Shown here: positions 37,766 through 61,464 of the stretch, piece after piece
Numbering within the stretch: the stretch's first letter is position 1
How the letters are laid out: each line of letters opens with the position of its first letter
Assembly: GCA_963720465.1 (NCBI GenBank)
Contig: OY970393.1
Span: 992,001-1,056,000 of the forward strand
From: Methanobacteriota archaeon
Lineage (GTDB): Archaea > Halobacteriota > Bog-38 > Methanoflorentales > Methanoflorentaceae
Reading direction: 5' to 3'
Length of the DNA stretch: 64,000 bases
Notes under the pieces: generated by a model
Database searches by the model: none
Seen by the model: the letters and a program-made list of their open reading frames with translations, nothing else
Told to the model about the DNA's origin: nothing
Position numbers and translations under genes: made by a program

Positions 37766-37766
37766 C

Positions 37767-39796: not shown

Positions 39797-39831
39797 CGCA
39801 TTACAAAACGTTTGCCCTAAACTATATTCTT

Positions 39832-41447: not shown

Positions 41448-41453
41448 AGGTCC

Positions 41454-44041: not shown

Positions 44042-44824
44042 CTACGCTTTCAAATAGTCTTCAGCGTACACGTCTTTGTTCAGCAGCACGTCGCACGTTT
44101 TTATGGTGTCCAATAGCTCTCGATCCTCGGTGTTTATGATTGCTGATGATAATCCCGCGCCCATCAGCATTGCCAGAAATGTCCGTTCAATTAATCGCGG
44201 ATTCTTTGTATCGTGCGAGATGTTGTTTAGGCCGATAGTCGTCTTTAGCGCTGACGTGGGGCTCGTGAGGAGGCCAATTTTTCGAACCGCTTCGACGACG
44301 ATCGGCGCTTGATCTTGCGCCGTACTCACGGGCAAACAAACAGGGTCGACGAACAGCTTGTCGACTTCGATGCCGTACTCACACGCGTTTGCGACAAGTG
44401 TCGCGGCCTGTTCCACTCGCTTATCGACGTCGCCAAGAATAAACTTCTCGTCCATCGTCATGCATATAATTTCTGAATCGTGCTCCGCGGCCAATGGAAA
44501 AAGCGTCGCCATCTTCTCCTGCTCAGCGGGGATCGAATTGATCATCGACTTTCCTTTGACGTCGTCAATACCGGCTTTCATCACGTCGATTTTAGGAGTG
44601 TCGATGGAAAGCGTTACGTCAATCACATCTTGCACAGTCGCTACCAGCCATTTCATCATCTCAGTGGCATCGCTTCTGGCAAGCCCCGCGTTGAGGTCGA
44701 TGATTTGCGCCCCGGCGTCGACTTGCCGAATTGCAAGTTCCTGAACAGCTTTCGTATCTCGTCGATCGATTATCGCTTCAACCGACTTTGAGTAGCCGTT
44801 GATGTTGCCGCCAATGACTATCAT
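44042..44824 (-). CDS. acsE: methyl-pterin:corrinoid iron-sulfur protein methyltransferase (AcsE/MeTr, pterin-binding TIM barrel)
   Basis: MIVIGGNING, QVDAGAQIIDLNAG, LSIDT, MINS, VDP, GLNNIS, RTFLAMLMGAGLSSAI; real start at 44824. Confidence 0.88.
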   Translation of the reverse strand: MIVIGGNINGYSKSVEAIIDRRDTKAVQELAIRQVDAGAQIIDLNAGLARSDATEMMKWLVATVQDVIDVTLSIDTPKIDVMKAGIDDVKGKSMINSIPAEQEKMATLFPLAAEHDSEIICMTMDEKFILGDVDKRVEQAATLVANACEYGIEVDKLFVDPVCLPVSTAQDQAPIVVEAVRKIGLLTSPTSALKTTIGLNNISHDTKNPRLIERTFLAMLMGAGLSSAIINTEDRELLDTIKTCDVLLNKDVYAEDYLKA

Positions 44825-44984
44825 AGACAACTCCCCCGCTAAAGTGCAAGTGATTAGGTGCGCGTAACGCTTTAACGCTTTCGCATGAGCGCGCACGACG
44901 CTACCCACCTCGCAACCTATATATAAAAATATAGTATATAAAGACACGTCAATTTTGAACACAATGTGAGGCTTTTGGGGCAAT

Positions 44985-46856
44985 TTGAAGAAAGAATTCA
45001 AGGTTGTTTTTAAACCTGACAACAAGACTGTCAAGGTTGAACGAGGCACGACTGTTCTTGACACAGCTACGAGCTCCGACATTTACATCGATAGCATCTG
45101 CGGAGGCCGAGGCAAGTGCGGCAAGTGTAAGGTCCTCATCGAGGGGAACGTCCATAGCGACGAGACTGACCTGATAACCACTGAAGAAAAAGCAGGCGGC
45201 TACTTTTTGGCGTGTTTGGCTCGAGTCACAGGCAATTTGAAAGTGACCGTGCCCAAAGAGAGTAGGGTGGAATCACACCAAATACTCATGAAAAGCGTGA
45301 CCACGCCTCTGCCAGCGATTGACCCCCCCGTGCTCAAGGTCCCGCTTTCTCTGACTCCCCCATCACTAGCCGACTACGTGAGCGACCTCGATAGAGTCAC
45401 GCACGCGCTGCGCAATCTTGACATAGGGCACGTCACGATCGGGCTGCCCACATTGAAGAGACTAAGCAGAGTGCTTCGAGAGAACCAATGGAACGTGAAC
45501 GTCACGCTGATGGACCTCTGGGACAGAAAAGAGATCATCGATATCGGTGCTCCTTCAGATAACGACTTGATCGGAATCGCAGTGGACATAGGTACTACGA
45601 CGATCGTCGTCGAGTTAGTGGACTTAACAACTGGCAGGGTGATTGACGCTCGCTCTGACTATAACAAGCAAGTCGTGTACGGTGAAGACGTCCTTTCCCG
45701 AGTGATGTACACCGAGGAGCACGAAGATGGCATTAGCAAACTGACAAGTACCATCAGGTATGGTATCAATGACCTCATACGAGAGCTCGTTATCGAAAAT
45801 AACGTGCGCTATGAAAGAATTTGCCGAGTGGTTCTTTCAGGCAATACCGTTATGATGCACCTTTTTTATGGGCTGGATCCCAAGTACATACGCCACGAGC
45901 CTTACATACCGGTGATGTCCATCGTCCCCCAGATGAAGGCGGTGAAGCTCGACCTGAGCGTCAACCCCAACGCCTATATTTATGCGCTTCCGTGCCGGAG
46001 CAGCTACGTCGGCGGCGACGTCACAGCTGACATAATCGCGTCTGGGATGAACGACAATGCGGACATCTCATTACTAATCGACGTTGGCACCAACGGCGAG
46101 GTCGTGTTGGGAAACGATACGTTCCTCGTGTCGTGTTCGTGTTCAGCCGGTCCGGCCTTTGAAGGCGGAGAAGTCGAGTTCGGCGTCCGAGCAATGAACG
46201 GCGCAATTGAGCGCGTGTGGATCAACGACGGTCTGGTGGAGTACTCGACCATCGGCAACGAAAAGCCAAAGGGCATTTGCGGGTCGGGTCTTATCGAACT
46301 CATCGCAGAGCTCTTCAGTAATGGCGTGATTGACCGAACGGGGAAGATTCAGCTAGACAAGAACAACGTCAGAACCGAGGTCGGAAGCAACGGCAACCAG
46401 TTCGTCGTGGCGTACAAAGAGGACACAGCCATTGACAAGAACATAGTCATGACCGACGTTGACATTCAAAACATACTGCGGACAAAGGCCGCGGTCTACG
46501 CGAGCTGTAGTGTGCTGCTCAAAACCTTTGGCTACAAATTTAGCGACCTGAGCAATGTCTTCATCGCAGGGAGCTTCGGCAACTACCTTGACACCAAGAA
46601 AGCGATTACGATTGGATTGCTTCCTGACCTACCCCTCGATACGTTCAAGTTCATTGGCAATGGGGCCCTTGGCGGAGCGCGAATGGTGTTGCTCTCGCGG
46701 AACCTGCAAGACAAAGCAGCAGAGATCGTCGAAAATATGACACACATAGAGCTGAGCGTCAGCAGCATGTTCTTCAAAGAGTTTACCTCAGCCCTTTTCA
46801 TTCCGCACACAGAACTTGATCAGTTTCCCCACATTGCCACACGAGTCTACACGTAG
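44985..46856 (+). CDS. acsV: reductive activator of corrinoid protein (RACo/AcsV; 2Fe-2S + ASKHA)
   Basis: CGGRGKCGKC...LAC, AVDIGTTT, IDVGTNGE, SAGPAFEG, GICGSG. Confidence 0.92.
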   Translation: MKKEFKVVFKPDNKTVKVERGTTVLDTATSSDIYIDSICGGRGKCGKCKVLIEGNVHSDETDLITTEEKAGGYFLACLARVTGNLKVTVPKESRVESHQILMKSVTTPLPAIDPPVLKVPLSLTPPSLADYVSDLDRVTHALRNLDIGHVTIGLPTLKRLSRVLRENQWNVNVTLMDLWDRKEIIDIGAPSDNDLIGIAVDIGTTTIVVELVDLTTGRVIDARSDYNKQVVYGEDVLSRVMYTEEHEDGISKLTSTIRYGINDLIRELVIENNVRYERICRVVLSGNTVMMHLFYGLDPKYIRHEPYIPVMSIVPQMKAVKLDLSVNPNAYIYALPCRSSYVGGDVTADIIASGMNDNADISLLIDVGTNGEVVLGNDTFLVSCSCSAGPAFEGGEVEFGVRAMNGAIERVWINDGLVEYSTIGNEKPKGICGSGLIELIAELFSNGVIDRTGKIQLDKNNVRTEVGSNGNQFVVAYKEDTAIDKNIVMTDVDIQNILRTKAAVYASCSVLLKTFGYKFSDLSNVFIAGSFGNYLDTKKAITIGLLPDLPLDTFKFIGNGALGGARMVLLSRNLQDKAAEIVENMTHIELSVSSMFFKEFTSALFIPHTELDQFPHIATRVYT

Positions 46857-47048: not shown

Positions 47049-47795
47049 GTGCAAACCATTGCGATAACTGGTAAAGGCGGAACCGGCAAAACGACTTTTG
47101 CTTCGCTCCTTATAAAACACTTGAGCAATGAAAGCGTCACCGTTTTGGCTGTCGATGCAGATCCGAACTCAAACTTGGACGCGCGACTCGGAATGCACGT
47201 CGACCAAACGATTGGCGACTTGCGAGAGGATCTGCTCAAAGAGTCATTTCCCGCGGGGGTTGCCAAGAGCGAACTTATTGAGTATCAGATACGCTTGGCT
47301 CTCGTTGAAGGAGACACGTTCGACCTTATCGCGATGGGACGGCCTGAAGGGCCTGGATGCTACTGCTACATCAACAACGTGTTGCGAGATGTCCTCGACA
47401 GGCTCTCCGTCAATTACGATTACGTTGTCATCGACAACGAAGCGGGTATGGAACACCTGTCACGACGCACGACTAGAGATGTTGACGTGCTGTTTATCAT
47501 GAGCGACGTGACCGTGCTAGGCATAATCACCGCCAGTCGGATCAAGAAGCTCTCTGAGAGCCTCAATCTTGTCGTAGGAAAAACGTATTTGGTGCTGAAC
47601 GAAGTCGAGAACGCCATACCGGAAAGCATCAAGGACCAGATACGGCAACAGGAATTAGACCTCATCGGCGCTATCCCAAAAGATGCCTTAGTTGGAGAGT
47701 ATGCTTTGGAAGGAAAATCTCTGTTTGAACTGCCTCGTGATTCGGCAGCGTTTAAAGCAGCTAGCGCGATTGCTGAGCACTCGATAACTCCGTGA
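47049..47795 (+). CDS. cooC: Ni-insertion ATPase CooC/AcsF
   Basis: GKGGTGKTT, VDADPNSNL, GPGCYC, DNEAGMEHLSR. Confidence 0.93.
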   Translation: MQTIAITGKGGTGKTTFASLLIKHLSNESVTVLAVDADPNSNLDARLGMHVDQTIGDLREDLLKESFPAGVAKSELIEYQIRLALVEGDTFDLIAMGRPEGPGCYCYINNVLRDVLDRLSVNYDYVVIDNEAGMEHLSRRTTRDVDVLFIMSDVTVLGIITASRIKKLSESLNLVVGKTYLVLNEVENAIPESIKDQIRQQELDLIGAIPKDALVGEYALEGKSLFELPRDSAAFKAASAIAEHSITP

Positions 47796-47797: not shown

Positions 47798-49132
47798 CTA
47801 TCCGTTTGCAAGCTCTTTCAAATACTTTGGCAGTGCAGACGAATCTTTGACACCGACGATGACTTCCCAGCCCGTGAGCTCCTCGAGTTTCATCTTCAGC
47901 ATGGCGATCATGCCGGGAATTATAAGCTTTCGGTGATCCACCTTTTCTGCGACCTTGTACTCCTTAAGCGCCTGTGCGATTGTCTCTGGCGTAAACTTGT
48001 CAGCGGCGAATGCGGTCATCACCGACAGGCCTTCGGTATCGACCACAAGAAGGCGCGCAGGGACTTTGCTCGCTTCAACATCGCTTGCGACGGTGAAATA
48101 TGTGAGGGAGAAATTTGACGTGACGATGACTGGCGAGTTCCGGTTGGGCTTTCCAATATCATAGAGACCTGGATTGACCTGTATGAGCGCCTGGGGATCT
48201 GTGAAGATGTTAGTCCTCAGCGTCGTAAGGGGGTATAACCGCGCGGCATCGAGGTCACCAAAGATAATCAGCGACGCGTATTTCAACGTTCCTATCGCGG
48301 CCCTTATCGCTTGCGTTTCGACGTCCGTCCCGTTGTCCAAGTTTAGCATGACCGGATAGCCCAGGGGCCGGAAAAGCTTCTTGACACTGAGTCGACGCAA
48401 GATGGTGAGCCATTCCAATGCATCGCGTAATGGCTTGGCACCGAGATTTAGATCTAACACGATGTCATCGACGCCTTCGCTTGTTGCTATTTCAGATAGC
48501 GACACAAGCTCATCGACGTCGTCTGAGTAGAGCGCGAGCGGGCACGCGTACTGCCGCGCGAGTTTTGCAAGTGCCGCGCAGTTGTTCGCATTACCGGCGT
48601 AAATCAACGGTTTGGCCTTCGATACGACCTTAAGCCCCACTTCAACGATTTGAGGGTCATGGCTCATCAAAACGAACGGCAATCCGCTGTTTTCTTTCAC
48701 GAGCGTCACCACTTCAGAGAACCGCTGTGCATCCCCTTTCGATTCGACCGCGATCAAGTCCACGCCTGAGATGGTGCCAATCCGCTCGTATTTCATCGCA
48801 TCGAGCTTCTTGGCCCGTTCCACAATGCTTTCGTTGTCGCTGTCGTCTTCGATTACCACCGCATATGCCGTCTGGTTGAAGAACTTCTTCTCGTGTCTGA
48901 ATAGCTCGGTTTCGCCTCCGATTTCTACGTCACCAACGGTGACGGTGCGCATAGGCGGCGAAGCGGAACTCTCGAGTTGTTGCACCACTTCGGGTGACAC
49001 ATATGGACATTTCGTGAGCTCTGTCTGCTTGTTCGCCAGCATCATAGCAAACGCCAGGCACGTGGGCACTCCGCATTCGCCGCAATTCTTTTTGGCTAGG
49101 AGTTTGAATATATCGAGCGCAGTCATCGGCAT
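47798..49132 (-). CDS. acsC: corrinoid iron-sulfur protein large subunit (gamma)
   Basis: NCGECGVPTCLAFA...CPY, RHEKKFFN, TSNFSLTYF, GLSVMTAFAADKF. Confidence 0.95.
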   Translation of the reverse strand: MPMTALDIFKLLAKKNCGECGVPTCLAFAMMLANKQTELTKCPYVSPEVVQQLESSASPPMRTVTVGDVEIGGETELFRHEKKFFNQTAYAVVIEDDSDNESIVERAKKLDAMKYERIGTISGVDLIAVESKGDAQRFSEVVTLVKENSGLPFVLMSHDPQIVEVGLKVVSKAKPLIYAGNANNCAALAKLARQYACPLALYSDDVDELVSLSEIATSEGVDDIVLDLNLGAKPLRDALEWLTILRRLSVKKLFRPLGYPVMLNLDNGTDVETQAIRAAIGTLKYASLIIFGDLDAARLYPLTTLRTNIFTDPQALIQVNPGLYDIGKPNRNSPVIVTSNFSLTYFTVASDVEASKVPARLLVVDTEGLSVMTAFAADKFTPETIAQALKEYKVAEKVDHRKLIIPGMIAMLKMKLEELTGWEVIVGVKDSSALPKYLKELANG

Positions 49133-49137: not shown

Positions 49138-50082
49138 TTATCCTGTCAATTCATCGACAACTTTTCTCGTGATCGCTACAGACTTCGGGTGTCGGAGTAT
49201 TAACGCGTTCGCGCCGGCCATTAAAGCCGCCAACGCAGACGCCACCTCCCAAAAGATCGCCCGTTCTCTCTCGTCGCCCAGCTTAGCGTCAACGCGATAG
49301 GCTTCCTTCGCGCCCCACGCCACGCTTATGTCAGCGATCATCGGAGATTGGAGCATCTTATCTCCCACGAGACCGGCGAGTTTAATCCGTTCCATCGCGG
49401 AATAAGCGTATTCCATCCCAAAACCAATTCCAGCCATAAGCGGGTCACTGACGATATGGTCGACTGGCACGCCAAACTCGGTGAGCATGATATTGAGCTG
49501 TTTAGCGATATTCACGTCGATGTTTGAGAACGCGACGACATCGTGGCCGTTGGCGGTCGCCGCAACGGCGATCGATTTGTAACCGTCCTGTTCCGCGCGG
49601 GAGAGCAAACACCGTTCTCCTTTGGCGGCGTCGCCGCAGAGTTCCATGACGCGGGCGTCTTTGTCATAGTCGCCACTTCCCTGTATTACGAGCGGTGCCT
49701 TCACCTGCGCGAGCACGGCCGACACGAGGGAGGCCGCATCTTCAGCGCTGACGTTTGCTTCCTCTGGATTCGTGCTCAGCAGCTTCAGACAGATGAAGTC
49801 TGCGCCATAGACATCAACGCACGCACGCGCCCACGCAACGGGATCCTTGATGACGTCGCCGATTTCATCAATGATGATGTGGGGGTAGTCATCGCCAACA
49901 TGATCGATCACTTCCATTCCGATCGCCGGTCGCGAAACCTTGCCTTCGAACGCCAAAAACGGAAGAGTCGTCTCTCCGCCTAAAAGGAGTTTTCTATCCC
50001 TCGTTCCGCCTTCCTCACCAGTAGCCCCGAATGCAATCTCCTTTATCTTTCCACTCCAACTTTCCTTTGGAATTGTTACCAT
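49138..50082 (-). CDS. acsD: corrinoid iron-sulfur protein small subunit (delta)
   Basis: GGETTLPFL, DVNIAKQLN, GMEYAYSAMERIKLAGL, ILRHP; ~314 aa (short, bacterial-like length); ATG at 50082. Confidence 0.94.
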   Translation of the reverse strand: MVTIPKESWSGKIKEIAFGATGEEGGTRDRKLLLGGETTLPFLAFEGKVSRPAIGMEVIDHVGDDYPHIIIDEIGDVIKDPVAWARACVDVYGADFICLKLLSTNPEEANVSAEDAASLVSAVLAQVKAPLVIQGSGDYDKDARVMELCGDAAKGERCLLSRAEQDGYKSIAVAATANGHDVVAFSNIDVNIAKQLNIMLTEFGVPVDHIVSDPLMAGIGFGMEYAYSAMERIKLAGLVGDKMLQSPMIADISVAWGAKEAYRVDAKLGDERERAIFWEVASALAALMAGANALILRHPKSVAITRKVVDELTG

Positions 50083-50116
50083 CGCCGTAACCACCGAGCT
50101 TCTCACGACGGCGCGT

Positions 50117-53100
50117 TTAAAACATGCCCATCGGCGACATGCGCAGCGCCGGGTGATCGACCTTCGCCAAGTACTGCGCTAGTTCATCCGCATCCGTCGT
50201 AATAGTTTCGTCGGCGATCTTGTCCACCAGATCCGGCAAGCCCAGTTCCTTTGCCCTTTTTTCAAGATCTTCTCGTAGCGCGGCTTTCAGGTCTTTCGGC
50301 ATCCAAACGACGCGCGCTAGCCCTCCATCCGCACGGATAAACTTCTTACTCGTAATGAACTGCCTGCCGACACCAATGAATCCGGGCGTTTGATTGCCCC
50401 CACCGACAGACCCGGCGAGCGTTGAGAACTTCATGCCGATCGGAGTCATTCCCGTGTACTCGCGGTTGACGACGATCACGCCCTGCAAATCACTGTTAAT
50501 CGCCACGATACACTCGAAACATCCACACGACGTCTGCGGATCCTCCATCATAGTGTACTGATTCATCCGCTCGATGTGGCCGTGGGTGAGCTCGCGGACC
50601 GCTTGGTTTACGTTTAACCATTGGCCTTTCTCCTCATCAATCACGGCGCCCTTCTCAACAGGCTTATTTGGCCCGTTTGGATCGATACTATACCCCGCCG
50701 CTGCATCTAGCCAGTTCAGTGCACCACACAGCCCAAGGCGTTCCGGAGAGATGATGCATACGTGGCTCGGGGCGAAGCTCTGACACAACGTGCACGAGTA
50801 GAACGCATCAACGCTCTCGTCCGTCAGCCCTGCAATCCGCCGATCCCGCTGTGCGTAAGCTTCCATAGCCTCTGGCAGATGCTTCTCCACCTCCTTCTCG
50901 TCGGTCATGATGGTGACTTGTATCCGGCTGATAATACCGCCGAGTTCTTCTTTCATCTTGTGGTAAAGGATGTCTCCGAAGTGCTTGAGGCGGAGCCCGT
51001 TGGCCACACTGTTCTTGCTTAGCCGCACCCAGATCAAGTTTCTCTGACCTGTATGCCACGCGCCTTCCGCATAGTTGATGAACTGATGAATGCGCCGCTC
51101 GACGACGGGCTCAAACTCGCTTTTCATGTGCTTTCCATACACTTCAACAAGAATCCCCAGCGCGGACACGCTCCCTTCTTCCATCTCGTCAACGTCCTTG
51201 CCGATGAGCGTGATCTGACCGTCCTTAACAGCATCAGCGTCGCGAATCTTGACGAGCTCAAAGACCTTTGTCTTTGTCGGGCCTCCACACTCGAGGTAGG
51301 TCTGCGGCTTACGCACCGTTTCACCCTCGAAGGCTAGCCCGTAGGCGACCGGCAATGAAACTTCGCCGACCGTGACCTTCATGTTCCGTATCTCTATCGC
51401 GTGTGCGACGATCTGATTGTAATCCTTCTCCACCTCATATTTGCCCGGCACTTCCTCCACGTCTTGATCAGTGATCGTCGGTGAACCATTGAACAGCACG
51501 GCGAACTCAATCGCTGCCTTAATGTCATCAATAGGGCCTAACTGGACGACGACGACTTTTGGCCTTTTTGCCAGGTAATCGGAGAGACCTTCCCTGTCGC
51601 CTGGCTTGACGTTCCCGAAGGTCAGCGCGGCGCGGATTGCAAAGCTCAACGCGTGAATTGCCTGCGTGAATTCGCCTACGCAAAACAGCAGCCGGTCAAG
51701 CCCCTTGTGTTCGCCAATCTCAATGCCGGCCTCGCTAATCTGCTGTATAGTATCAAAGGTAGGAATCACTAACATGCCCTTACTTTGACAATCTCTGATG
51801 ATCTTCGCAAGCAGTTTTGGGTCTCTCGCCTTCCCCACCAACACGAGGACCCCCGGTATGGTATCATCGACGAACGAGATCCCCAACTTTCGCAGCACCT
51901 CGTCAGCGACGAACCCCGTGTACGGAGTGGCCGCGTATGGGTCAGGATTGTCGATGTACTTGAGGGCTTCAACGATTTCTGCAGCGATCATCGTCGCTTC
52001 GCCCGAAGCCACCGCGTTGTCAAACGTGTACTCCTCCCGTATCTTTCCCCTCACCTCTCCGAGGAGCCGCGGCAGCTGTGCGAGTTTCGTCACTCGTTCT
52101 CCTGTCCACGCGGTTATACAAGGAAGGTAATACCCGGTGCTCGGGTATCCTATCTCCTTATCGCGACCGTACTGACGTATCGCCTTGTTCAGCAGCTGGT
52201 CTGCATACCCTGTCGCGATGATAGCCCCGTCAATCCCCTTTTTATATAGATCCTCATTCGAGAGCGCAGGTGCCTCCACCGACGGCGTGGATCCGTTCCA
52301 GTACGTGACCTCGCCGTCTAGTTCACTGTGCGTGTCCATCTTCCATCTGCGGTATTGGATGGTGTTTACCAGCGTCTTCGCGGCGACCGTCGGATCGGGC
52401 TCAAATATAAAGTGACCGCCGTAGACGTCTTGTGCTGTCGCCTGAGCGACTTCATCCGCAAGAGGGCTCCCCTTGATGAACGGGTACACTCCGACGTGCG
52501 TGGGCCATCCGGTTGCCACGCACCACGTCCCGATCGCCACCGCCTTTTCGCTCATGGCTTCGGGCGCGCTCGCGACGATGGGGAGGTCCTGTATGTCGAC
52601 GCCCATTGCCTGCGCGAGTTCGCTGACGAGGTTTTCCACGCGCGAGTTGTCCACGCAGGACCCCATATGAAGGACGAGCGGTAGCGATTGGCCAATGGTT
52701 TTTTCCCCGACGTCTTTGAGAAACGCCTTGAGAGATTCGCCAGCGTACTCGTCGACTGCCTCTGGCGTCAACAAGCCGTGCTTCGCGAGAGATTGAGCCG
52801 CACAACCGGTCACAAGCGTTAGGATGTTATTTTTGACCAGTTCCTTGGCGATAGTCAAATGACAGAGGTCGTGTTCAGCTTTCGCGGGATTGTTGCACCC
52901 CGCGATAAGTGCGATGCCTTGGACATCTCCGCTGCGAATCTTTTCGGCCAGATGCTTAAGCGGTTCTTTTTCGTTAAAGCTGCTCAGTAACGATTTTATG
53001 TACTCGAGACTAAAGCCTGCAACGACCTTGCTCGAAATGTCAGGAATGAATATTTTGGTTGGATCTCTGTTATTGTATGCTTCAATTGCGACGCGCACGA

Positions 53101-54250
53101 TCTCTTTGGCGCCTTCGCGCGCCGCCGCTTCGTTGAATTCGATGTGCGTATCGCCGGGGATGCGGGTAATCGGCATCGTTGATATCAACTTCGTGTGGAA
53201 ACACTGCGTCCAGAATCCCACCGATGGCGCGATACATTGATAATCGATGACCATCACGTCGACGACGCCTGTCATTATCGCCAATTCTTGACTCGCGAAA
53301 TTTGTGACGAGCGGAATACCTCTGCGCATCAACAGTTCGTTACCAGTGCAACAAATGCCGACGATATTAATCCCTTTCGCGCCAGCGGCTATGGCCTCGC
53401 CTTGCAGCTCGTCAGCAGCGTCGCAGATGACTTCGCTCAGTATGGGATTGTGCCCGTGCACACAGACGTTCACGCAGTCCTGCTTTAACGCTCCAAGATT
53501 AGCCTCTGAAACCACCATCTGCGGCGCGCCAAACAAGACGTCTGAGATGTTTGAGCTTATGTTTTCGCCCGTGACATCGCCGAGTGAGCACTTGATCCCC
53601 CCGAATATTAACGGCACCGGATCAGCGTCGCACCCCATGTGCGTTCTGTGCATCACTTCCGTGATCCCTCTATCAATGTTGGTAGCGATTACGTCATTTC
53701 GCTCAAGGAGTTCCAACCTCTTTGGGGGGAGCATGATCTTGAGCCAGCTACACGCCTGGTCATCGTTCCGTGAAAAGTCCTCCAAAGCGGCATTCGCCAC
53801 CGCCACCGCAAGTTCACTTATGCTTTTCTCGTTCTCCAGACCGAGCTTTGCGGCAAGTGCGCGCAGTTTCGCCTCATCTTTTATGCGATAGTCGGGTGCC
53901 TGACCCTCGCCGACCGCTTTAAGCGCGGACGCCAAGTGCCGTCCGTGGTCAGAGTGGGCTGCACAGCCTCCTGCCATCATCCGAATCAGATTACGCGCCA
54001 CAATTGTGTAATCTTTCGCCCCACAGATTCCTCTTTGTGGCTCTTTTCCGAAAGGATTGATCCGACAAGGTCCCTGCAAACAGATCCGGCAGCATAGACC
54101 GGACTCACCGAAGCCACACTGAGGCTGCATGGTTTCAGCCCTATCCCACATCGTTTGCATATGGTCCCGCTCTGCACGTGGCAGCATCTCGAGCGCCGCA
54201 GGGTCCACAGTTACAGCTTTTGTATTTCCTTTGTTACGTCTCTTGTCCAT
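50117..54250 (-). CDS. cooS-acsB: fused anaerobic CO dehydrogenase (CooS/AcsA) - acetyl-CoA synthase (AcsB)
   Basis: One frame, ~1377 aa from ATG 54250. CODH motifs CGFGESGLCCRICLQGPC, HGHNP, GICCTGNE, DYQC, GCNN, TGC, GSCVD, SEKA; ACS motifs CTLCQSFAPSHVC, LCGA, TSCGCFE. Confidence 0.95.
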   Translation of the reverse strand: MDKRRNKGNTKAVTVDPAALEMLPRAERDHMQTMWDRAETMQPQCGFGESGLCCRICLQGPCRINPFGKEPQRGICGAKDYTIVARNLIRMMAGGCAAHSDHGRHLASALKAVGEGQAPDYRIKDEAKLRALAAKLGLENEKSISELAVAVANAALEDFSRNDDQACSWLKIMLPPKRLELLERNDVIATNIDRGITEVMHRTHMGCDADPVPLIFGGIKCSLGDVTGENISSNISDVLFGAPQMVVSEANLGALKQDCVNVCVHGHNPILSEVICDAADELQGEAIAAGAKGINIVGICCTGNELLMRRGIPLVTNFASQELAIMTGVVDVMVIDYQCIAPSVGFWTQCFHTKLISTMPITRIPGDTHIEFNEAAAREGAKEIVRVAIEAYNNRDPTKIFIPDISSKVVAGFSLEYIKSLLSSFNEKEPLKHLAEKIRSGDVQGIALIAGCNNPAKAEHDLCHLTIAKELVKNNILTLVTGCAAQSLAKHGLLTPEAVDEYAGESLKAFLKDVGEKTIGQSLPLVLHMGSCVDNSRVENLVSELAQAMGVDIQDLPIVASAPEAMSEKAVAIGTWCVATGWPTHVGVYPFIKGSPLADEVAQATAQDVYGGHFIFEPDPTVAAKTLVNTIQYRRWKMDTHSELDGEVTYWNGSTPSVEAPALSNEDLYKKGIDGAIIATGYADQLLNKAIRQYGRDKEIGYPSTGYYLPCITAWTGERVTKLAQLPRLLGEVRGKIREEYTFDNAVASGEATMIAAEIVEALKYIDNPDPYAATPYTGFVADEVLRKLGISFVDDTIPGVLVLVGKARDPKLLAKIIRDCQSKGMLVIPTFDTIQQISEAGIEIGEHKGLDRLLFCVGEFTQAIHALSFAIRAALTFGNVKPGDREGLSDYLAKRPKVVVVQLGPIDDIKAAIEFAVLFNGSPTITDQDVEEVPGKYEVEKDYNQIVAHAIEIRNMKVTVGEVSLPVAYGLAFEGETVRKPQTYLECGGPTKTKVFELVKIRDADAVKDGQITLIGKDVDEMEEGSVSALGILVEVYGKHMKSEFEPVVERRIHQFINYAEGAWHTGQRNLIWVRLSKNSVANGLRLKHFGDILYHKMKEELGGIISRIQVTIMTDEKEVEKHLPEAMEAYAQRDRRIAGLTDESVDAFYSCTLCQSFAPSHVCIISPERLGLCGALNWLDAAAGYSIDPNGPNKPVEKGAVIDEEKGQWLNVNQAVRELTHGHIERMNQYTMMEDPQTSCGCFECIVAINSDLQGVIVVNREYTGMTPIGMKFSTLAGSVGGGNQTPGFIGVGRQFITSKKFIRADGGLARVVWMPKDLKAALREDLEKRAKELGLPDLVDKIADETITTDADELAQYLAKVDHPALRMSPMGMF

Positions 54251-54662
54251 ATACCAATGCACCACACTTGCACGCAAGAACGCACGACAACTCCGCTGCG
54301 CCATCGCATAGATCGCACTTAACCGCTTTGCGATCGCGCGTCAATACCGCCCCAAACGGGCACGCATCAATACACGCGAAACAGCCGGTGCAGCGCTCGT
54401 CGTCAATCGTCACCACGCCCGCTTCACTTTTTACGATCGCACCCGCTTCACACACTTCGATACACTTCGGCCGCTTACAGTGCAGACATCGTGTGAGATG
54501 TAGCTTGCCGTCTTTGTATCCGATGGTAAGCCTCGAGATCGGGGAAGGGTGTTCCGACATCGCAGTGTTAATGTCGCCTGACTGGCTATGGCGCAGGGCA
54601 CACGCAAGCTCGCACGTCTTACACGCTACACAGTTCTTCGGAACAAACCTAGCGATCAACAT
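54234..54662 (-). CDS. cooF: CooF-like 4Fe-4S ferredoxin
   Basis: CVACKTCELAC, CLHCKRPKCIEVC, CTGCFACIDACP, KCDLC...CVLAC; overlaps the cooS start. Confidence 0.9.
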   Translation of the reverse strand: MLIARFVPKNCVACKTCELACALRHSQSGDINTAMSEHPSPISRLTIGYKDGKLHLTRCLHCKRPKCIEVCEAGAIVKSEAGVVTIDDERCTGCFACIDACPFGAVLTRDRKAVKCDLCDGAAELSCVLACKCGALVYGQET

Positions 54663-55267: not shown

Positions 55268-55603
55268 TCAATCCGAGAGGTCGATGTACCATTTGGTAAG
55301 TTGGTTCAGTGAGCCTTCCATGCCTCGATAATCCCCTAGAAGCTCATAACCGAACGCAGTCAGCTTGGCCCCGCCCCCTTCTTTTCCGCCTCGCGTCCTC
55401 TCAACAAGAGACCGACCGAGCCGTTTTTCAACGACGGTTATGCGTTCCAGAGCGTAGCGATACGACATCCCCAGCTCGCGCGCCGCGGCGCTGACAGATC
55501 CAAGCCTATCTATTTCAGCAAAGAGCCTCATCGTACCGAGGCCAAAAACGTATTCTTCATCTTCGCCGACGAACCACAGTTTGAATCGTGGTCTAATTCT
55601 CAT
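55268..55603 (-). CDS. ModE-type winged-HTH regulator (DNA-binding domain only)
   Basis: GSVSAAARELGMSYRYA...VERTRGGKEGGGAKLT. Confidence 0.88.
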   Translation of the reverse strand: MRIRPRFKLWFVGEDEEYVFGLGTMRLFAEIDRLGSVSAAARELGMSYRYALERITVVEKRLGRSLVERTRGGKEGGGAKLTAFGYELLGDYRGMEGSLNQLTKWYIDLSD

Positions 55604-55646
55604 GCTGGTAAGCTATAATAGGCTATGTGCACACTTAATCATAACG

Positions 55647-56837
55647 ATGAAATTCAAAACACGAACTCCATTCGAAGCGGCGCTGGATACGTTCCTCACC
55701 GCCATCGTGCCGATCGAAGAAACCGAGGTGACGCCATTACGAGAGGCGCGAGGGAGAGTGGTAGCACATCAGATCATTGCACAAAGGGATGAACCCAACT
55801 ATCGACGCGCTGCAATGGATGGCTACGCCGTCGTCGCCGACGACACGTTGGGCGCGAGCGAACATTCACCAATCGTTCTTAGAGTTGGCAACTCCGTGAG
55901 GCGCGGCGTGGCCTCGCGGGTCCACACCGGATCCAAAATACCCGACCAAGCCGACAGCGTCGTGATGGTGGAGGACACAGAACGTCTCGGCGACGTGGTT
56001 GAGGTTAGAGCGCACGTACATCCGTTCGAAAATGTCGGCCTCAAAGGAGAGGACATTGGCCGCGGTGATGTCGTTGTTGAGCCCGGCCATCAACTGCGAC
56101 CTGCGGACATCGGTCTACTCGCCTCCCTCGAGGTTCGCGACGTTACCGTCTACCGGCGACCAGATGTCGCGATCATACCGACCGGAGAGGAGCTCGTTGA
56201 AAAAGGGCCTTCAGAAGGGGAAGTGGTCGAAACAAATGGTCTTATAACGGCGCTTCTAGTAGAACAGTGGGGCGCTCACTACCGCTATCGAAGCATCGTT
56301 ACCGACGCGCGAGAGCTCATTGAAGCCGCATTGTTGCGGGACATCGATGCCGACCTGATACTTACGACGGGGGGGACCTCAGTTGGCATTCGGGACCTCG
56401 TACCAGAGGCGGTACGTAAGCTTGGCAAGCTTTTGGTGCACGGGATCGCAATCAGCCCCGCAAAGCCTACAGCGCTGGGGCTTGTAGAGAATACCCCCGT
56501 CGCGTGTCTGCCTGGGTTTCCGGTGGCCTGCCTCGTCGCTTCATACGCATTTGTCAAGCCAGCGGTCTATCGTCTGGCTCACTTCGACCATACATTTGAG
56601 CGGACGGTGACCGGCACGCTGGCGAGTAAGGTCATGGGAAAGCCCGGCTCGCGAACGTACGCGCGCGTGGCTATCAGGAACGGACGCGTCGAACCCATTA
56701 TGACGTCTAAATCAGGTATACTCCCTGGATCAGGCATACTCAGCTCTATGGCTAAAGCAGACGGATTCGTTATCATTCCGGAAAATGTTGGAGGGTACGA
56801 CAAGGGTCAACAGGTAGAGGTCGTGCTGTTCGACTAG
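55647..56837 (+). CDS. moeA: molybdopterin molybdotransferase MoeA
   Basis: AAMDGYAV, VHTGS, IIPTGEEL, TTGGTSVG, LPGFP; ATG at 55647. Confidence 0.94.
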   Translation: MKFKTRTPFEAALDTFLTAIVPIEETEVTPLREARGRVVAHQIIAQRDEPNYRRAAMDGYAVVADDTLGASEHSPIVLRVGNSVRRGVASRVHTGSKIPDQADSVVMVEDTERLGDVVEVRAHVHPFENVGLKGEDIGRGDVVVEPGHQLRPADIGLLASLEVRDVTVYRRPDVAIIPTGEELVEKGPSEGEVVETNGLITALLVEQWGAHYRYRSIVTDARELIEAALLRDIDADLILTTGGTSVGIRDLVPEAVRKLGKLLVHGIAISPAKPTALGLVENTPVACLPGFPVACLVASYAFVKPAVYRLAHFDHTFERTVTGTLASKVMGKPGSRTYARVAIRNGRVEPIMTSKSGILPGSGILSSMAKADGFVIIPENVGGYDKGQQVEVVLFD

Positions 56838-57614: not shown

Positions 57615-57689
57615 GGGGTAGTAGGGTAGCTTGGTCCATCCTCGAGCGTTTGGGACGCTTGGACGGCAGTTCGAATCTGCCCTACCCCA
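57615..57689 (+). tRNA. tRNA-Pro(TGG)
   Basis: Acceptor GGGGTAG/CTACCCC, anticodon arm GAGCG-TTTGGGA-CGCTT, T-loop GTTCGAATC. Confidence 0.95.
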
Positions 57690-57736
57690 TAGGCTTAAGA
57701 CACGCCGATGAAGTAACTGTCGGAACCACCACATAA

Positions 57737-57811
57737 GGACTCGTTGCCTAGTCAGGATAGGGCACCGGCCTCCTAAGCCGGCGGTCGAGGGTTCAAATCC
57801 CTCCGGGTCCG
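57737..57811 (+). tRNA. tRNA-Arg(CCT)
   Basis: Acceptor GGACTCG/CGGGTCC, anticodon arm CCGGC-CTCCTAA-GCCGG, T-loop GTTCAAATC. Confidence 0.95.
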
Positions 57812-58168
57812 CTTTCGCGCTTTGAGCACAATGCTACTGCGCGTTTCATCAAACAGTGCGACGTCTAGATGGAGACAATAAAGATGGAGCGACGCGTTAG
57901 CTTACGAGTCGGCAGTTTTTTCTTTGACTACCCTCTTTTCAAGCACGGTCGCCAAGAAACGTGCTTGGCTCGGCTCCACTGCAGACCCTAAGTCGTGCAA
58001 CATATCGTATATCCGTTCGCTTCTAATGCGATTGTGTAACTTCCTTTTTCGTTTTTGTGGCCTATATAAGACTTAAGAGCTAGCAGCATCGAACAACGGC
58101 CAACCCTCGTCGCGCCAATTCGCCCGTGCCCGTTTCACAAGGCACCACGCTCGTCGATCTAGCAAGGG

Positions 58169-59749
58169 TTACAGGCGGAACTCGAAAGCCGCGACAGGAT
58201 AGATCAGTTTGTGCTCAACCAGCATATCTGGGTCGATCTCCCCAAAAGTTCCTACGGGCTGTCCATTGACGATAATCATTGCACGCCTGCCCTCAATGAA
58301 TGAGGGGTCGGCTGATTCAGTGACCTCAAACGGACGGTCGAGCTCCCGCAAGACCGCGTTCACGACCTTTTTTATTTCCGTGAAATTAGCTGAGCTGGAC
58401 GCAATAACGCCCGCGCACAGGCGCCGTTCTTCGGCCGCGTCGGCGACAAGGCGGACTACGTCACCCACCTCGTACACCATTTGGGGGTACTCTCGGTGCT
58501 GGTTGAGGGCCAGCGTGTCTATCAAGCCAGGCAACAAACTCGTTCGCAGGCTAATGTGCTCCTCAAGGAGAGGGTTTTCAATAATGACGGCTTCTCTGGG
58601 ATCGGAAGCCAACATAAGCGTGATGACCTCGAGGAATCCCAGCCCCTGTAGCACGTCCCTGACGAGGGTTGATCGCTGCTCTTCTTCCAGCCTGCTGCCG
58701 ATAGTTCCAAGCTTCGGAAAAGAAGACGGAAGGTTTTCGTAACCAAAACCGATAGCGACGTCTTCTATGATGTCAACCGGATGCATGATGTCAGTCCGGT
58801 AGCACGGAACCGACACCGTAATCGTGCCTGCGTCCGCCTCTGCGTCCATCCGCATTTTTTGCAGTGAGGCCATGATCACCTCGTCTGCGATCTCGGCGCC
58901 AATACGCTGCCTTACGTCGCTATTTCTGACGACAAGGGTCGAGCCGCCCATGTTGGGGGTACACAGCACGCGGTCGCCACCCCCATAAACGACGTCAACC
59001 GTCTCGATCGACGCTCCTCGGTCATAAAGCGCTGCGACAAGTATGTGAAGGCAGTCTTGAATAGCTTTCAGCTCAATACCCGTCACGTCAATGAAAAGAT
59101 CGGTCGTCTTTTCCGTAACACGGGTGAGCTCACCGTTGATAATTGGCGGAAATGAGAGAACGTGATCGTTTGCGTCCAAGATCAGGGGGTGGTGATCGCC
59201 GACGATGTGTGCGTATTCCTTTCCCTTCGGATGGACGCGAAGAATCTCTGCAGGGGTCATCGGTTCGGAAAAATCGAGGGGTATAAACGCGACTTCGCTA
59301 AGTGTGTACCTAAACGGTGGGCATACTCGAGAGAGATCGTGAATTCCTATCGAAGCCTTTCTGCGGTCCCGCCCAACTCCCCAGTGCAGGTCTTCCTGCA
59401 GATCGATCAATGACTTAATCGTCCTTTCATCGATCGTAATTCCTCTCACAACGGCGCAAACCACGTGTGGGCGCACCGCGTTTACCGATGGGTCGACCCC
59501 GATTTCGATACCCGAGGGTGAGGTCGCGTACGCGGGGAGACCCACCTCTAGTCCGAGCATCCCTTTTATCGCTCGAGCCCCGCCCTCAACACTAAACAAA
59601 TCAGGCCTATTTGGGAAAAACTCGACCTGTACCTCGTCATCGACACACTCAACATCTGCCCCGAGGCGTGGAAGCAATTCAACGATTGTGCCAATGTCGG
59701 CGCCAACCATTTCCTCAAGCTCCGCACGATTGAGGGTAACGACTGGCAC
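58169..59749 (-). CDS. pheT: phenylalanyl-tRNA synthetase beta subunit (archaeal type)
   Basis: EFFPNRPDLFS, GIHDL, SFPPIING, YRTDIMHPVDIIEDVAI. Confidence 0.96.
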   Translation of the reverse strand: MPVVTLNRAELEEMVGADIGTIVELLPRLGADVECVDDEVQVEFFPNRPDLFSVEGGARAIKGMLGLEVGLPAYATSPSGIEIGVDPSVNAVRPHVVCAVVRGITIDERTIKSLIDLQEDLHWGVGRDRRKASIGIHDLSRVCPPFRYTLSEVAFIPLDFSEPMTPAEILRVHPKGKEYAHIVGDHHPLILDANDHVLSFPPIINGELTRVTEKTTDLFIDVTGIELKAIQDCLHILVAALYDRGASIETVDVVYGGGDRVLCTPNMGGSTLVVRNSDVRQRIGAEIADEVIMASLQKMRMDAEADAGTITVSVPCYRTDIMHPVDIIEDVAIGFGYENLPSSFPKLGTIGSRLEEEQRSTLVRDVLQGLGFLEVITLMLASDPREAVIIENPLLEEHISLRTSLLPGLIDTLALNQHREYPQMVYEVGDVVRLVADAAEERRLCAGVIASSSANFTEIKKVVNAVLRELDRPFEVTESADPSFIEGRRAMIIVNGQPVGTFGEIDPDMLVEHKLIYPVAAFEFRL

Positions 59750-59758
59750 TTAGACACC

Positions 59759-61249
59759 TCAACGCAGCGCGCTTGGCGTATCGCGCAGCCAGGCGACGTC
59801 ACTCATGTAGAGCTTTCTGATGTCTGCCAGCCCCATTTTGAGCATCGCAATCCTCTCAATACCGATGCTGAATCCCAAAACGCTTTTGAGCCCTAACGGC
59901 TGAGTCACTTCAGGCCGAAAGACGCCGGCCCCTACCAACTCAAGCCAGCTGCCGTCCACAAAGACATCACCTTCAAGGCTCGGTTCGGTAAAAGGAAAAT
60001 AACCGGGTCTAAATCGAACGCGATCAAATCCGAGCCGTTCAAAGACCGCCTTAAGCACGCTGATCAGGTCGGCCAAGCTGAGGTCTTCACCGTGAATTGT
60101 CCCCTCGCACTGGTGAAACTGCGGCAGATGCGTTGAGTCCATACTTTCTCGTCGGAATACGCGGTCGATGGCGAAAATCATTGCCGGGGGCTCCGGATGG
60201 CGTACGAGATAACGAAATGCGGACCCGGTCGTATGAGTTCGCAAGACTGCTCTACGCGATCGCTCGAGGTCAAACTCGCCCCCCCACCCCATTGAACCCT
60301 CGCAGCCGAACCTATGTGCTGCTGCCACGCGCTCTGCCAGGTCCGTTGGCAATTCGAGCGCCGCTGGGCGACTGAGATAGAACGTGTCTTGTTCATCGCG
60401 TGCGGGATGGTCTTGCGGCACGAACAGAACGTCGAAATTATGGAATTCACTTTCGACGATCGGCCCCCTGAACTCGGCAAATCCCATCGAAATGAAGATT
60501 TCGCGCATTTCATCAATAAGGCGTCGCAGCGGATGTGCTTTGCCGGGATAAAGCGGAAGGGTAGCGGCGCTTACGTCGTAGGGCTTCAATCGTCCTCGCC
60601 AAGCCCCAGTTCTGATGAGTTCAGACGTGAGATCAGCAATATCACGGTCGGCCGCGGGTGGCACACGTAGTGGCGTTTCGTCGCCCACTTGAGTCAAAAT
60701 GACCTCACGTGATACAACCTGGTGTGCGCGAACGACATTGCGCTTTTCGAGCTCTTTGAGAGTCGGTTCTGCTACTTGTCGCTCAAGCGAGACGTCATTC
60801 AAGGTGAATTGGATACTGACCTTCACGTCCTGAAGTATGCGCTCTTCAGGCAGTTCGCGTGCCGCGCGAGGTGAAAGTATGGAGTCGCCATTCGCGGTCT
60901 CGATGGTGGCCCACCCACGACGCTTCAGCCAACCAACGGCGATTGGCACGGCTGGAAAGATGCTCTTGAGGTCCGTCAGTAGAGTAGGCCCATTTATGAG
61001 CAAGTAGTCGTGAACCTGCCGTTCTGGAAGCCCTTTCTCAGCATAGGTTACGCCCTCAGCTGTAAGTTCGTAAACAGTTTCGATGGTTTCTTTTACCTGC
61101 GCGAGCTCCTTTGTTTGAAGAAAGTACGCTGATTGAAGGACTGTTTCGGTTTTTAAGTCGGCGTCTTTTGACAGGACTTCAACTGTCGCTCGCTTTGCAC
61201 GCTTAAGGGCCCGAAAAAGTATCCAGTCATTCTTAGATAGCTGCACCAT
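59759..61249 (-). CDS. pheS: phenylalanyl-tRNA synthetase alpha subunit (archaeal type)
   Basis: PQDHPARDEQDTF, LRTHTT, VFRRE, YFPFTEPS, GIERIAM; ATG at 61249. Confidence 0.96.
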   Translation of the reverse strand: MVQLSKNDWILFRALKRAKRATVEVLSKDADLKTETVLQSAYFLQTKELAQVKETIETVYELTAEGVTYAEKGLPERQVHDYLLINGPTLLTDLKSIFPAVPIAVGWLKRRGWATIETANGDSILSPRAARELPEERILQDVKVSIQFTLNDVSLERQVAEPTLKELEKRNVVRAHQVVSREVILTQVGDETPLRVPPAADRDIADLTSELIRTGAWRGRLKPYDVSAATLPLYPGKAHPLRRLIDEMREIFISMGFAEFRGPIVESEFHNFDVLFVPQDHPARDEQDTFYLSRPAALELPTDLAERVAAAHRFGCEGSMGWGGEFDLERSRRAVLRTHTTGSAFRYLVRHPEPPAMIFAIDRVFRRESMDSTHLPQFHQCEGTIHGEDLSLADLISVLKAVFERLGFDRVRFRPGYFPFTEPSLEGDVFVDGSWLELVGAGVFRPEVTQPLGLKSVLGFSIGIERIAMLKMGLADIRKLYMSDVAWLRDTPSALR

Positions 61250-61464
61250 ACGAATCTCTGACGTTATAGGAAGTAAAATACGCGTATTGCTACTCACCAC
61301 GCGCGATTATTATTTATTGTTACCTGTCGACACACAGTATGTGCAAGCCAAAATGATGGTATTGTCGCGAACCGAGCCTTGCTGACTGGATCTCTGTGCG
61401 GCTTGGGATTCAACGGCTTGTTCCCACGCACCACGACAGAGGCGGGGCCTTACGGGGATACCTA

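What the first reader, a model, noticed from the sequence alone, without database searches (positions are those of the whole stretch)
50117..54250. Single-chain CODH-acetyl-CoA synthase (CooS-AcsB fusion) in an archaeon
Seen: one uninterrupted ~1377-aa ORF with a full CooS-type CODH (D/B-cluster Cys, all six C-cluster ligands, catalytic Lys), a short linker (DTHSELDGEVTYWNGSTPSVEAPALS) and a full AcsB including its N-terminal domain and all A-cluster Cys. Established: archaea normally use separate CdhA/CdhB/CdhC, and model acetogens such as Moorella encode AcsA and AcsB separately. Inference: a laterally acquired, covalently tethered CODH/ACS that fixes 1:1 stoichiometry and CO channelling. 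Similar fusions may already be reported from uncultured lineages; I cannot check that here.
Basis: partly seen in the sequence, partly recalled or inferred. Interest (0 to 1): 0.9.

Follow-up and report, generated by a model that had tools for sequence, protein, structure and literature searches.

The report
Single-chain CO dehydrogenase/acetyl-CoA synthase in methanogen
A peat-bog methanogen makes its only CO dehydrogenase and acetyl-CoA synthase as one fused bacterial-type protein; this fusion is real and shared by hundreds of archaeal sequences in public databases, but no paper I could search describes it.

Summary
Window 50117-54250 (-) is one 1377-codon ORF: a complete CooS/AcsA-type Ni-CODH, a 26-residue variable spacer, then a complete three-domain AcsB. 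Every metal ligand is present.

It is not an assembly artefact. 119 of the 120 best database hits carry all four domains. In 22 of 22 species-representative loci that hold both halves, the halves share one frame. Contigs from two RNA libraries cross the junction without indels.

The host is an archaeal methanogen with McrA, close to MAGs that a paper assigns to Ca. Methanoflorens (GTDB Bog-38). The fusion is its only CODH and only ACS. No CdhA or CdhB was found, and CdhA passed its cut-off in 0 of 24 genomes of the class.

The gene sits in a bacterial-style cluster: CooF-like, CooS::AcsB, AcsD, AcsC, CooC, AcsV/RACo and an AcsE-like gene.

Trees of both halves place it inside a fused family otherwise labelled Thermoplasmata/Methanomassiliicoccales. 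The likeliest history is transfer of an already fused gene between archaea, not a local fusion.

The claimed benefit (1:1 stoichiometry, CO channelling) already holds for the unfused bacterial complex and is untested here. Ten full-text searches found no description of the fusion, and two likely sources could not be read.

Moderate interest: a new variant of a known kind.

The parts
50117..54250 (-). cooS::acsB fusion gene, 1377 codons plus stop (an in-frame ATG at 54304 would give 1395 aa)
52331..54250 (-). CooS/AcsA-type Ni-CODH half (aa 1-640) with D-, B- and C-cluster ligands and catalytic Lys
52253..52330 (-). variable spacer (aa 641-666) between the conserved RRWK motif at the end of CooS and the start of AcsB domain A1
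   Evidence: RNA-library contigs cross it without indels
50120..52252 (-). AcsB half (aa 667-1377): domains A1, A2 and A3 with the complete A-cluster motif
54234..54662 (-). CooF-like 2x[4Fe-4S] ferredoxin; its stop overlaps the fusion gene's start by 17 nt
   Evidence: conserved upstream in relatives
49138..50106 (-). AcsD-like small subunit of the corrinoid iron-sulfur protein (322 aa)
47798..49132 (-). AcsC-like large subunit of the corrinoid iron-sulfur protein (444 aa)
47049..47795 (+). CooC-like P-loop ATPase (probable Ni-insertion accessory protein)
44985..46856 (+). AcsV/RACo-type reductive activator of the corrinoid protein
44042..45082 (-). AcsE-like pterin-binding methyltransferase. 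The true start is uncertain because the longest ORF overlaps the start of acsV.

Best explanation
This is a functional single-polypeptide, bacterial-type CODH/ACS of about 152 kDa (my estimate from 1377 residues). It is the only CODH and the only ACS of a methanogen of the Ca. Methanoflorens / Bog-38 lineage.

Inferred mechanism, by homology to the Moorella and Carboxydothermus alpha2beta2 enzymes:
- Two chains dimerise through their CooS halves, rebuilding the CODH dimer with its bridging D-cluster.
- Each chain's AcsB half stays tethered by a flexible spacer of 27-38 residues and docks through its A1 domain.
- Ferredoxin electrons enter through the CooF-like protein.
- CO2 is reduced to CO at the C-cluster, and the CO moves to the A-cluster.
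- There it is joined to CoA and to a methyl group delivered by the AcsC/AcsD corrinoid protein.
- The AcsE-like methyltransferase loads that protein, and AcsV/RACo keeps it reduced.
- The net reaction is reversible acetyl-CoA synthesis, most likely anabolic in a hydrogenotrophic methanogen.

Evolution: the whole cluster replaced the archaeal Cdh complex after transfer of an already fused gene from a Thermoplasmatota-like archaeon.

Shown: the architecture, ligand conservation, synteny, uniqueness in the genome, distribution and phylogenetic position.

Inferred: dimer assembly, the CO tunnel, the methyl donor and the physiological direction.
For: - Intact ORF with full-length matches over the curated cut-offs for both halves.
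- Strong matches to solved AcsA and AcsB chains (698 and 789 bits).
- C- and A-cluster ligands invariant in 116 of 116 fused sequences.
- 119 of the 120 best hits carry all four Pfam families, and 115 of 120 are 1280-1450 aa long.
- In 22 of 22 GTDB-representative loci that hold both halves, the halves share one frame; 21 of 22 have no stop.
- The fused gene is matched in 22 of 24 genomes of the class. The two misses are 61% and 86% complete.
- The own genome has one Prismane hit and one CdhC hit, both this gene. It has no CdhB and has McrA at 996 bits.
- CdhA passes its cut-off in 0 of 24 genomes of the class, against 77 of 151 in the phylum sample.
- The cluster CooF-CooS::AcsB-AcsD-AcsC-CooC-AcsV-AcsE-like is syntenic in the relatives. 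CooS::AcsB-AcsD-AcsC-CooC-AcsV is shared with three Methanomassiliicoccales-labelled loci; the two closer Thermoplasmata-labelled loci show CooF-CooS::AcsB-AcsD-AcsC only.
- The spacer varies in length (27-38 aa) and sequence: consensus identity 0.43, against 0.71 for CooS and 0.80 for AcsB. Two relatives carry repeat expansions in it. This is how a flexible tether behaves.
- In the AcsB tree, the Methanoflorens rows (100*) are sister to a Thermoplasmata-labelled fused group (99*). In the CooS tree they join the same group at SH-aLRT 91, unstarred.
- An AU test rejects a tree in which Methanoflorens is not nested among the other archaeal sequences (p = 0.0002).
- Contigs from two RNA libraries of different studies cross the junction with 0 gaps.
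Against: - There is no protein-level evidence. A 152-kDa product, a homodimer and activity are all unshown.
- The RNA-library contigs are about 95% identical, so they come from relatives. Such libraries can also carry DNA.
- I could not get a structure model, so whether A1 docks in cis or in trans, and whether the tunnel is intact, is untested.
- The trees use only the top-120 hit lists, quick or FastTree searches and submitter-given taxon labels. Two labels at 87-96% identity (Bathyarchaeia, Acidiferrales bacterium) clash with the rest. The AU group was named after the tree had been seen.
- The number of fusion events is unresolved: the fewest state changes are 2 on the CooS tree and 7 on the AcsB tree.
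- The AcsE-like protein scores 254 bits, just under its 259-bit cut-off. Its pterin substrate is unknown.
Confidence: 0.8

Rival explanations
1. Assembly or gene-calling artefact: two adjacent genes (acsA, acsB) were merged by a lost stop codon or a frameshift error.
For: The gene order equals the usual adjacent acsA-acsB arrangement. One relative locus (L014) has a TAG inside the match.
Against: The host genome is a single 2.31-Mb contig with an intact frame. 22 of 22 independent loci keep both halves in one frame, and 21 of 22 have no stop. 119 of the 120 best hits are fused. No indels were seen in two DNA runs and two RNA-library runs laid on the junction. With the 34 listed variants applied there were no stops; 84 further differences were not shown, so that check is partial.
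Confidence: 0.02
2. The gene is fused but the protein is not. The spacer is cleaved, or AcsB is also made from an internal start, so the cell ends up with the ordinary two-subunit alpha2beta2 complex.
For: The spacer is poorly conserved and probably exposed. Stand-alone AcsB paralogs of 727 aa that start just before the A1 domain exist in relatives, so AcsB alone can be a viable product.
Against: The spacer holds no Met. The fused frame is kept across sequences down to about 55% identity, which argues that selection maintains the fused reading frame. No cleavage motif is known to me.
Confidence: 0.08
3. The enzyme runs mainly in reverse. It cleaves acetyl-CoA for acetoclastic methanogenesis, as proposed for Ca. 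Methanoflorens from cdhC/D/E plus acs gene calls.
For: PMC12296737 (passages read) reports this gene set in 89.1% of 156 Methanoflorens MAGs and its expression. The own genome has two AMP-forming acetyl-CoA synthetase genes over the cut-off. The reaction is reversible.
Against: The 'cdh' genes behind that inference are this bacterial-type cluster. Its characterised homologs (Moorella, Carboxydothermus) work in acetogenesis or carbon fixation. Hydrogenotrophic methanogens need CODH/ACS anabolically (established knowledge). AMP-forming activation costs two ATP equivalents, which makes acetoclastic growth marginal (established knowledge for Methanothrix, recalled). No tool here tests direction.
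Confidence: 0.2

Closest known systems
Moorella thermoacetica CODH/ACS (AcsA2AcsB2; PDB 1MJG, 1OAO)
   Same: Both halves align over nearly their full lengths: 698 bits to chain A (residues 26-662 of 674) and about 776 bits to the ACS chain (21-728 of 729). All cluster ligands are present, as is the three-domain AcsB with its A1 docking domain.
   Different: In Moorella the enzyme is two separate polypeptides; here it is one. The spacer between the invariant Trp and Gly is 27-38 residues. By my count from the alignments, that is shorter than the two free tails of the separate subunits added together (about 46). The host is a methanogenic archaeon.
Carboxydothermus hydrogenoformans CODH/ACS (PDB 7ZKJ, 1RU3) and CODH-II (1SU6)
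   Same: Best ACS match (789 bits) and a near-best CODH match (692 bits). The D-cluster has the same C-x7-C spacing.
   Different: Separate subunits, and a bacterial host that uses folate.
Archaeal ACDS (CdhABCDE; for example Methanosarcina, PDB 9C0S)
   Same: Same overall chemistry. The A2-A3 core of ACS is homologous (361 bits to 9c0s_E).
   Different: CdhA scores only 59 bits against a cut-off of 781. There is no CdhB. ACS here carries the A1 domain that CdhC lacks. AcsD is of the short bacterial length. The host class has no CdhA over the cut-off (0 of 24).
Unfused bacterial-type AcsA + AcsB of Thermoplasmata-labelled MAGs
   Same: These are the closest stand-alone forms: CooS at 55-62% and AcsB at 63-68% identity. 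Several appear to be pairs on the same contig, judged from equal contig lengths in the two hit tables.
   Different: They are two genes. They branch beside or between the fused clades.
Other fusions among CODH/ACS components in the 50%-identity representative library
   Same: Fusions between neighbouring cluster genes recur: AcsB-AcsD (P0371, P0378), AcsD-CooS (P0426), and a pyridine-nucleotide oxidoreductase fused to AcsB (P0369).
   Different: None of them joins the two catalytic subunits. The CooS::AcsB family is represented by a single full-length representative at 50% identity (P0036).

Membership tests
Ni-CODH, CooS/AcsA type (TIGR01702) | Full-length match over the curated cut-off | tested here: met
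   730 bits against a cut-off of 478, profile positions 2-619 of 621
Ni-CODH, CooS/AcsA type (TIGR01702) | C-cluster ligands (His + 5 Cys), B-cluster 4 Cys, D-cluster 2 Cys, catalytic Lys | tested here: met
   H267, C301, C339, C452, C483, C532; C54, C57, C62, C76; C45, C53; K569, mapped from the alignment. Conserved in the family. The reference residue numbers are recalled.
Ni-CODH, CooS/AcsA type (TIGR01702) | CO/CO2 oxidoreductase activity with bound Ni | not testable with these tools
   Needs purified protein.
Bacterial-type acetyl-CoA synthase AcsB (NF040764) | Full-length match over the curated cut-off, with three domains A1-A3 | tested here: met
   953 bits against a cut-off of 800, profile positions 1-704 of 705. 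Pfam CODH_A_N, CdhC and ACS_CODH_B_C all match.
Bacterial-type acetyl-CoA synthase AcsB (NF040764) | A-cluster motif C-x2-C-x8-C-x9-C plus C-G-C | tested here: met
   C1153, C1156, C1165, C1175 and C1242-G1243-C1244; 116 of 116 rows
Classical bacterial CODH/ACS (alpha2beta2 of two gene products) | CODH and ACS are separate polypeptides | tested here: not met
   One ORF without a stop. The same holds in 21 of 22 relatives.
Classical bacterial CODH/ACS (alpha2beta2 of two gene products) | Accessory set: corrinoid protein AcsC/AcsD, methyltransferase AcsE, CooC, RACo | tested here: met
   All are adjacent. The AcsE-like protein scores 254 bits, just under its 259-bit cut-off.
Archaeal ACDS (CdhABCDE) | CdhA-type CODH with E/F clusters, partnered by CdhB | tested here: not met
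   TIGR00314 scores 59 bits against a cut-off of 781. No CdhA in the genome and no CdhB. The controls ring in M. jannaschii and M. acetivorans.
Archaeal ACDS (CdhABCDE) | CdhC-type ACS that lacks the A1 domain | tested here: not met
   The A1 domain is present (CODH_A_N; it aligns to residues 19 onward of 7zkj_B).

The most novel reading that the evidence does not exclude
The Bog-38 / Ca. Methanoflorens lineage, reported as the most abundant methanogen group in northern peat, discarded the five-subunit archaeal ACDS. It runs its acetyl-CoA node on a horizontally acquired, naturally single-chain bacterial-type CODH/ACS homodimer. That enzyme is wired to archaeal methyl-H4MPT chemistry through an AcsE-like methyltransferase with a new pterin specificity. 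The fusion itself, which no searchable text describes, matters for assembly or stability. It would be a ready-made single-gene CODH/ACS for structural work and engineering.
Probability: 0.35. Interest if true: 0.7.

Novelty: new variant of a known kind. Interest (0 to 1): 0.5.

Why it matters
CODH/ACS is the core of the Wood-Ljungdahl pathway and one of the oldest enzyme systems. Its bacterial form is always described as two subunits and its archaeal form as five.

A conserved natural single-chain form gives a one-gene route to the bifunctional enzyme. It also offers a test of what tethering does for assembly and CO transfer.

In ecology, the published claim that Ca. Methanoflorens is both hydrogenotrophic and acetoclastic rests on 'cdh' gene calls. 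In the host genome the only ACS and CODH matches belong to this bacterial-type fused cluster, so the direction in which it runs affects how peatland methane pathways are read.

In evolution, it documents replacement of the ACDS complex in a class of methanogens by transfer between archaeal phyla.

Tried and rejected
- **Structure prediction.** I prepared residues 1-960 (CooS + spacer + A1) with a 41-row alignment. I ran no complex job.
- **Prior mention in print.** Ten full-text searches found none. These included the phrases 'CooS-AcsB', 'AcsA-AcsB fusion', 'CODH-ACS fusion', 'fused CODH', 'AcsAB fusion' and 'fused AcsA'. The single hit is about cellulose synthase.
- **Sources I could not read.** Adam et al. 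2018 (PNAS) is not held. Inoue et al. 2019 (PMC6344411; passages read) says fused Ni-CODHs are listed in Supplementary Table 1, which is closed. Either could already list this fusion.
- **Recent transfer judged from base composition.** GC of the gene region (0.546-0.553) lies within the window's range of 0.48-0.62. There is no signal either way.
- **DNA runs X5 and X6.** They gave only short contigs over the stretch, and no listed piece spans it whole. I use them only for the absence of indels.
- **Parsimony on fused versus unfused state.** It gave 2 changes on the CooS tree and 7 on the AcsB tree. I could not decide between one fusion followed by fission and two fusions.
Full report
**Observation**

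The window holds one ORF at 50117..54304 on the minus strand, 1395 codons from the first ATG, and it translates without a stop. That is the length of 10 of the 11 closest homologs, and relatives align from residue 1 of that version. An upstream CooF-like ORF ends 17 nt inside it.

Pfam finds Prismane, CODH_A_N, CdhC and ACS_CODH_B_C in that order. NCBIfam places a full CooS (730 bits, cut-off 478) in front of a full AcsB (953 bits, cut-off 800). The halves match the solved Moorella and Carboxydothermus chains almost end to end.

I read the ligand positions off those alignments, using recalled Moorella residue numbers as the key. All D-, B-, C- and A-cluster ligands, the catalytic Lys and the gating Phe are present. 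In 116 fused sequences, the C- and A-cluster columns are invariant.

**Not an artefact**

- The host genome is a single 2.31-Mb contig.
- Of the 120 best hits among 765 significant ones, 119 carry all four Pfam families and 115 are 1280-1450 aa long.
- The species-representative genome collection gave 33 related loci. 22 of them hold both halves: 22 of 22 share one frame and 21 of 22 have no stop. L014 has one TAG, and L005 holds masked N.
- Contigs from two RNA libraries of different studies (X15 record 4, X16 record 9) run from inside AcsB across the spacer (52253-52330) far into CooS with 0 gaps. No indels were listed in any of the four runs laid.
- Applying the 34 listed substitutions creates no stop. 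That check is partial, because 84 further differences were not shown.
- The RNA-library contigs are about 95% identical to the window, so they come from relatives. An RNA library can also carry DNA.

**The host**

The genome has archaeal SSU and LSU rRNA and McrA at 996 bits. The closest fused homologs (87-98% identity) come from peat, bog and fen MAGs, among them isolates 'bog_38' and 'SPRUCE 210'. PMC12296737 (passages read) assigns SPRUCE 210 to Ca. Methanoflorens crillii and equates Methanoflorens with GTDB Bog-38. PMC9635834 (passages read) equates c__Bog-38 with Methanoflorentales. I therefore read the host as a Ca. Methanoflorens-lineage methanogen. This is an inference from relatives, not a direct classification.

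**It is the only CODH/ACS**

- In the own genome the Prismane family hits once and the CdhC family hits once, both at this gene. The control genomes show that CdhA-type enzymes would have been detected.
- CdhB is absent.
- In the 24 genomes of the class (one family, two genera), the fusion is matched in 22; the two misses are 61% and 86% complete. CdhA passes its cut-off in 0 of 24.
- In an even sample of 151 genomes from 26 families of the phylum, a 444-residue query spanning the junction matched only the host's own family (16 of 18, plus the host), apart from one 37%-identical AcsB-only hit.
- In the same sample CdhA passes its cut-off in 77 of 151 genomes, and in 0 of 18 of the own family.

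**Context**

The gene sits in a bacterial-style cluster: CooF-like ferredoxin, CooS::AcsB, AcsD (322 aa), AcsC (444 aa), CooC, AcsV/RACo, and an AcsE-like pterin methyltransferase (254 bits, cut-off 259). An A-type ATP synthase operon lies beside it.

This order is conserved in the Methanoflorens-like loci. The core CooS::AcsB-AcsD-AcsC-CooC-AcsV is shared with three Methanomassiliicoccales-labelled loci at 59% identity. The two Thermoplasmata-labelled loci at 67-68% show CooF-CooS::AcsB-AcsD-AcsC, with no CooC or AcsV match in the stretch held. In five such genomes (four with the fusion, one with an unfused AcsB), none has CdhA, and two of them have McrA.

**The spacer**

Between the invariant Trp at the end of CooS and the invariant Gly at the start of A1 there are 27-38 residues in 116 fused sequences (median 33; 38 here). 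Consensus identity there is 0.43, against 0.71 for CooS and 0.80 for AcsB. One relative has a Thr/Pro-rich repeat expansion in the spacer and another has a duplicated segment.

This is how a flexible tether behaves. Its length could reach either CODH subunit of a dimer, so cis versus trans docking stays open.

**Evolution**

At 50% clustering, the whole representative library holds one full-length fused representative (P0036) plus fragments, so the family is compact. The nearest stand-alone forms are Thermoplasmata-labelled (CooS 55-62%, AcsB 63-68%), followed by Bacillota (51-54%).

- FastTree trees of 219 and 233 rows and IQ-TREE quick trees of 60 and 58 rows agree.
- The archaeal sequences form a clade next to Bacillota ACS-type enzymes.
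- The Methanoflorens rows form a long-stemmed clade (100*). In the AcsB tree it is sister to one Thermoplasmata-labelled fused subgroup at 99*. In the CooS tree it joins the same subgroup at SH-aLRT 91, which is not starred.
- An AU test rejects keeping the other 44 archaeal AcsB rows together to the exclusion of Methanoflorens (p = 0.0002). The group was named after the tree had been seen.
- Together with the phylum distribution, this supports transfer of an already fused gene, probably with its cluster, from a Thermoplasmatota-like archaeon into the Methanoflorens ancestor, replacing Cdh.
- An unfused Thermoplasmata clade sits between fused clades. The fewest state changes are 2 on the CooS tree and 7 on the AcsB tree. 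One fusion with later fission, or two fusions, both remain possible.

Caveats: only the top-120 hit lists were sampled. The taxon labels are the submitters' own, and two labels (Bathyarchaeia, Acidiferrales bacterium) at 87-96% identity look wrong.

**How it most likely works**

By homology, two chains dimerise through the CooS halves. Each AcsB half docks through A1. CO made at the C-cluster reaches the A-cluster. The methyl group comes from the AcsC/AcsD corrinoid protein, which the AcsE-like enzyme loads and AcsV reactivates.

In a methanogen the methyl donor should be methyl-H4MPT, which would be a new specificity for an AcsE-like protein. That is inferred, not tested. The direction is probably anabolic.

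PMC12296737 proposes acetoclastic use from cdhC/D/E plus acs gene calls. The genome does have two AMP-forming acetyl-CoA synthetases. I give that reading about 0.2.

**Novelty**

That AcsB occurs in Thermoplasmatota, Methanomassiliicoccales, 'Methanomicrobia' and Bathyarchaeota is stated in a 2026 preprint. Its phylogeny section (read in full) does not mention a whole CooS fused to AcsB.

JGI's automatic names for these proteins already join both subunit names. Ten full-text searches found no description of the fusion. Adam et al. 2018 and the supplement of Inoue et al. 2019 could not be read and may list it.

Other fusions among cluster components exist: AcsB-AcsD, AcsD-CooS and oxidoreductase-AcsB.

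I file this as a new variant of a known kind, of moderate interest. The fusion is real, conserved and possibly useful. It is also widespread in public data, and what the fusion adds functionally is unshown.

Noticed in passing
P0068 and P0116 (fused homologs, about 1895 aa): A 538-residue intein with a LAGLIDADG homing-endonuclease domain is inserted directly before the A-cluster Cys that corresponds to C1156. Two intein-bearing AcsB-containing representatives without a CooS match also exist (P0363, which lacks the start of AcsB, and P0370).
   Followed up: partly
L026 and L031 (one MAG that also has the fused gene, L009); P0242-P0246: Stand-alone AcsB paralogs of 727-744 aa, 84-88% identical to the AcsB half, start just before domain A1. 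In L026 no CooS lies upstream, and the neighbours are ArsP- and ACR3-like transporter genes. In the tree they fall inside the Methanoflorens clade. The copies in L026 and L031 look frameshifted. The window's genome has none.
   Followed up: partly
L003 2550-2753; L009 9918-10070: The spacer is expanded in two relatives. One has a Thr/Pro-rich run of short repeats (204 nt between the halves, against 81-84 nt in the close relatives). The other has a duplicated segment of about 23 residues that includes the first residues of A1.
   Followed up: no
P0289, P0295, P0307, P0311, P0312, P0319: A clade of unfused AcsB nests inside fused Methanomassiliicoccales-labelled sequences. It includes one protein named Candidatus Methanomassiliicoccus. 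This suggests secondary loss of the CooS half in that group.
   Followed up: no
L010; L004 and L034: Record titles 'Candidatus Bathyarchaeia archaeon' (96% identity, full synteny with the window) and 'Candidatus Acidiferrales bacterium' (87-89%) clash with all other close relatives, which are labelled Methanomicrobia, Halobacteriota or Methanobacteriota. These are probably mislabelled or mis-binned MAGs.
   Followed up: no
window 44985-45082: The longest ORFs of the AcsE-like gene (-) and acsV (+) overlap head to head by 98 nt. The AcsE-like ORF has about 86 residues in front of its methyltransferase domain. One or both true starts probably lie further in.
   Followed up: no
window 36347-43923; 55268-56837; 57615-57812; 58169-61300: Flanking genes are an A-type ATP synthase operon (subunits H, I, E, C, A, B), a ModE-like regulator with MoeA, tRNA-Pro(TGG) and tRNA-Arg(CCT), and both phenylalanyl-tRNA synthetase subunits. 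These are ordinary chromosomal surroundings with no mobile-element genes.
   Followed up: no
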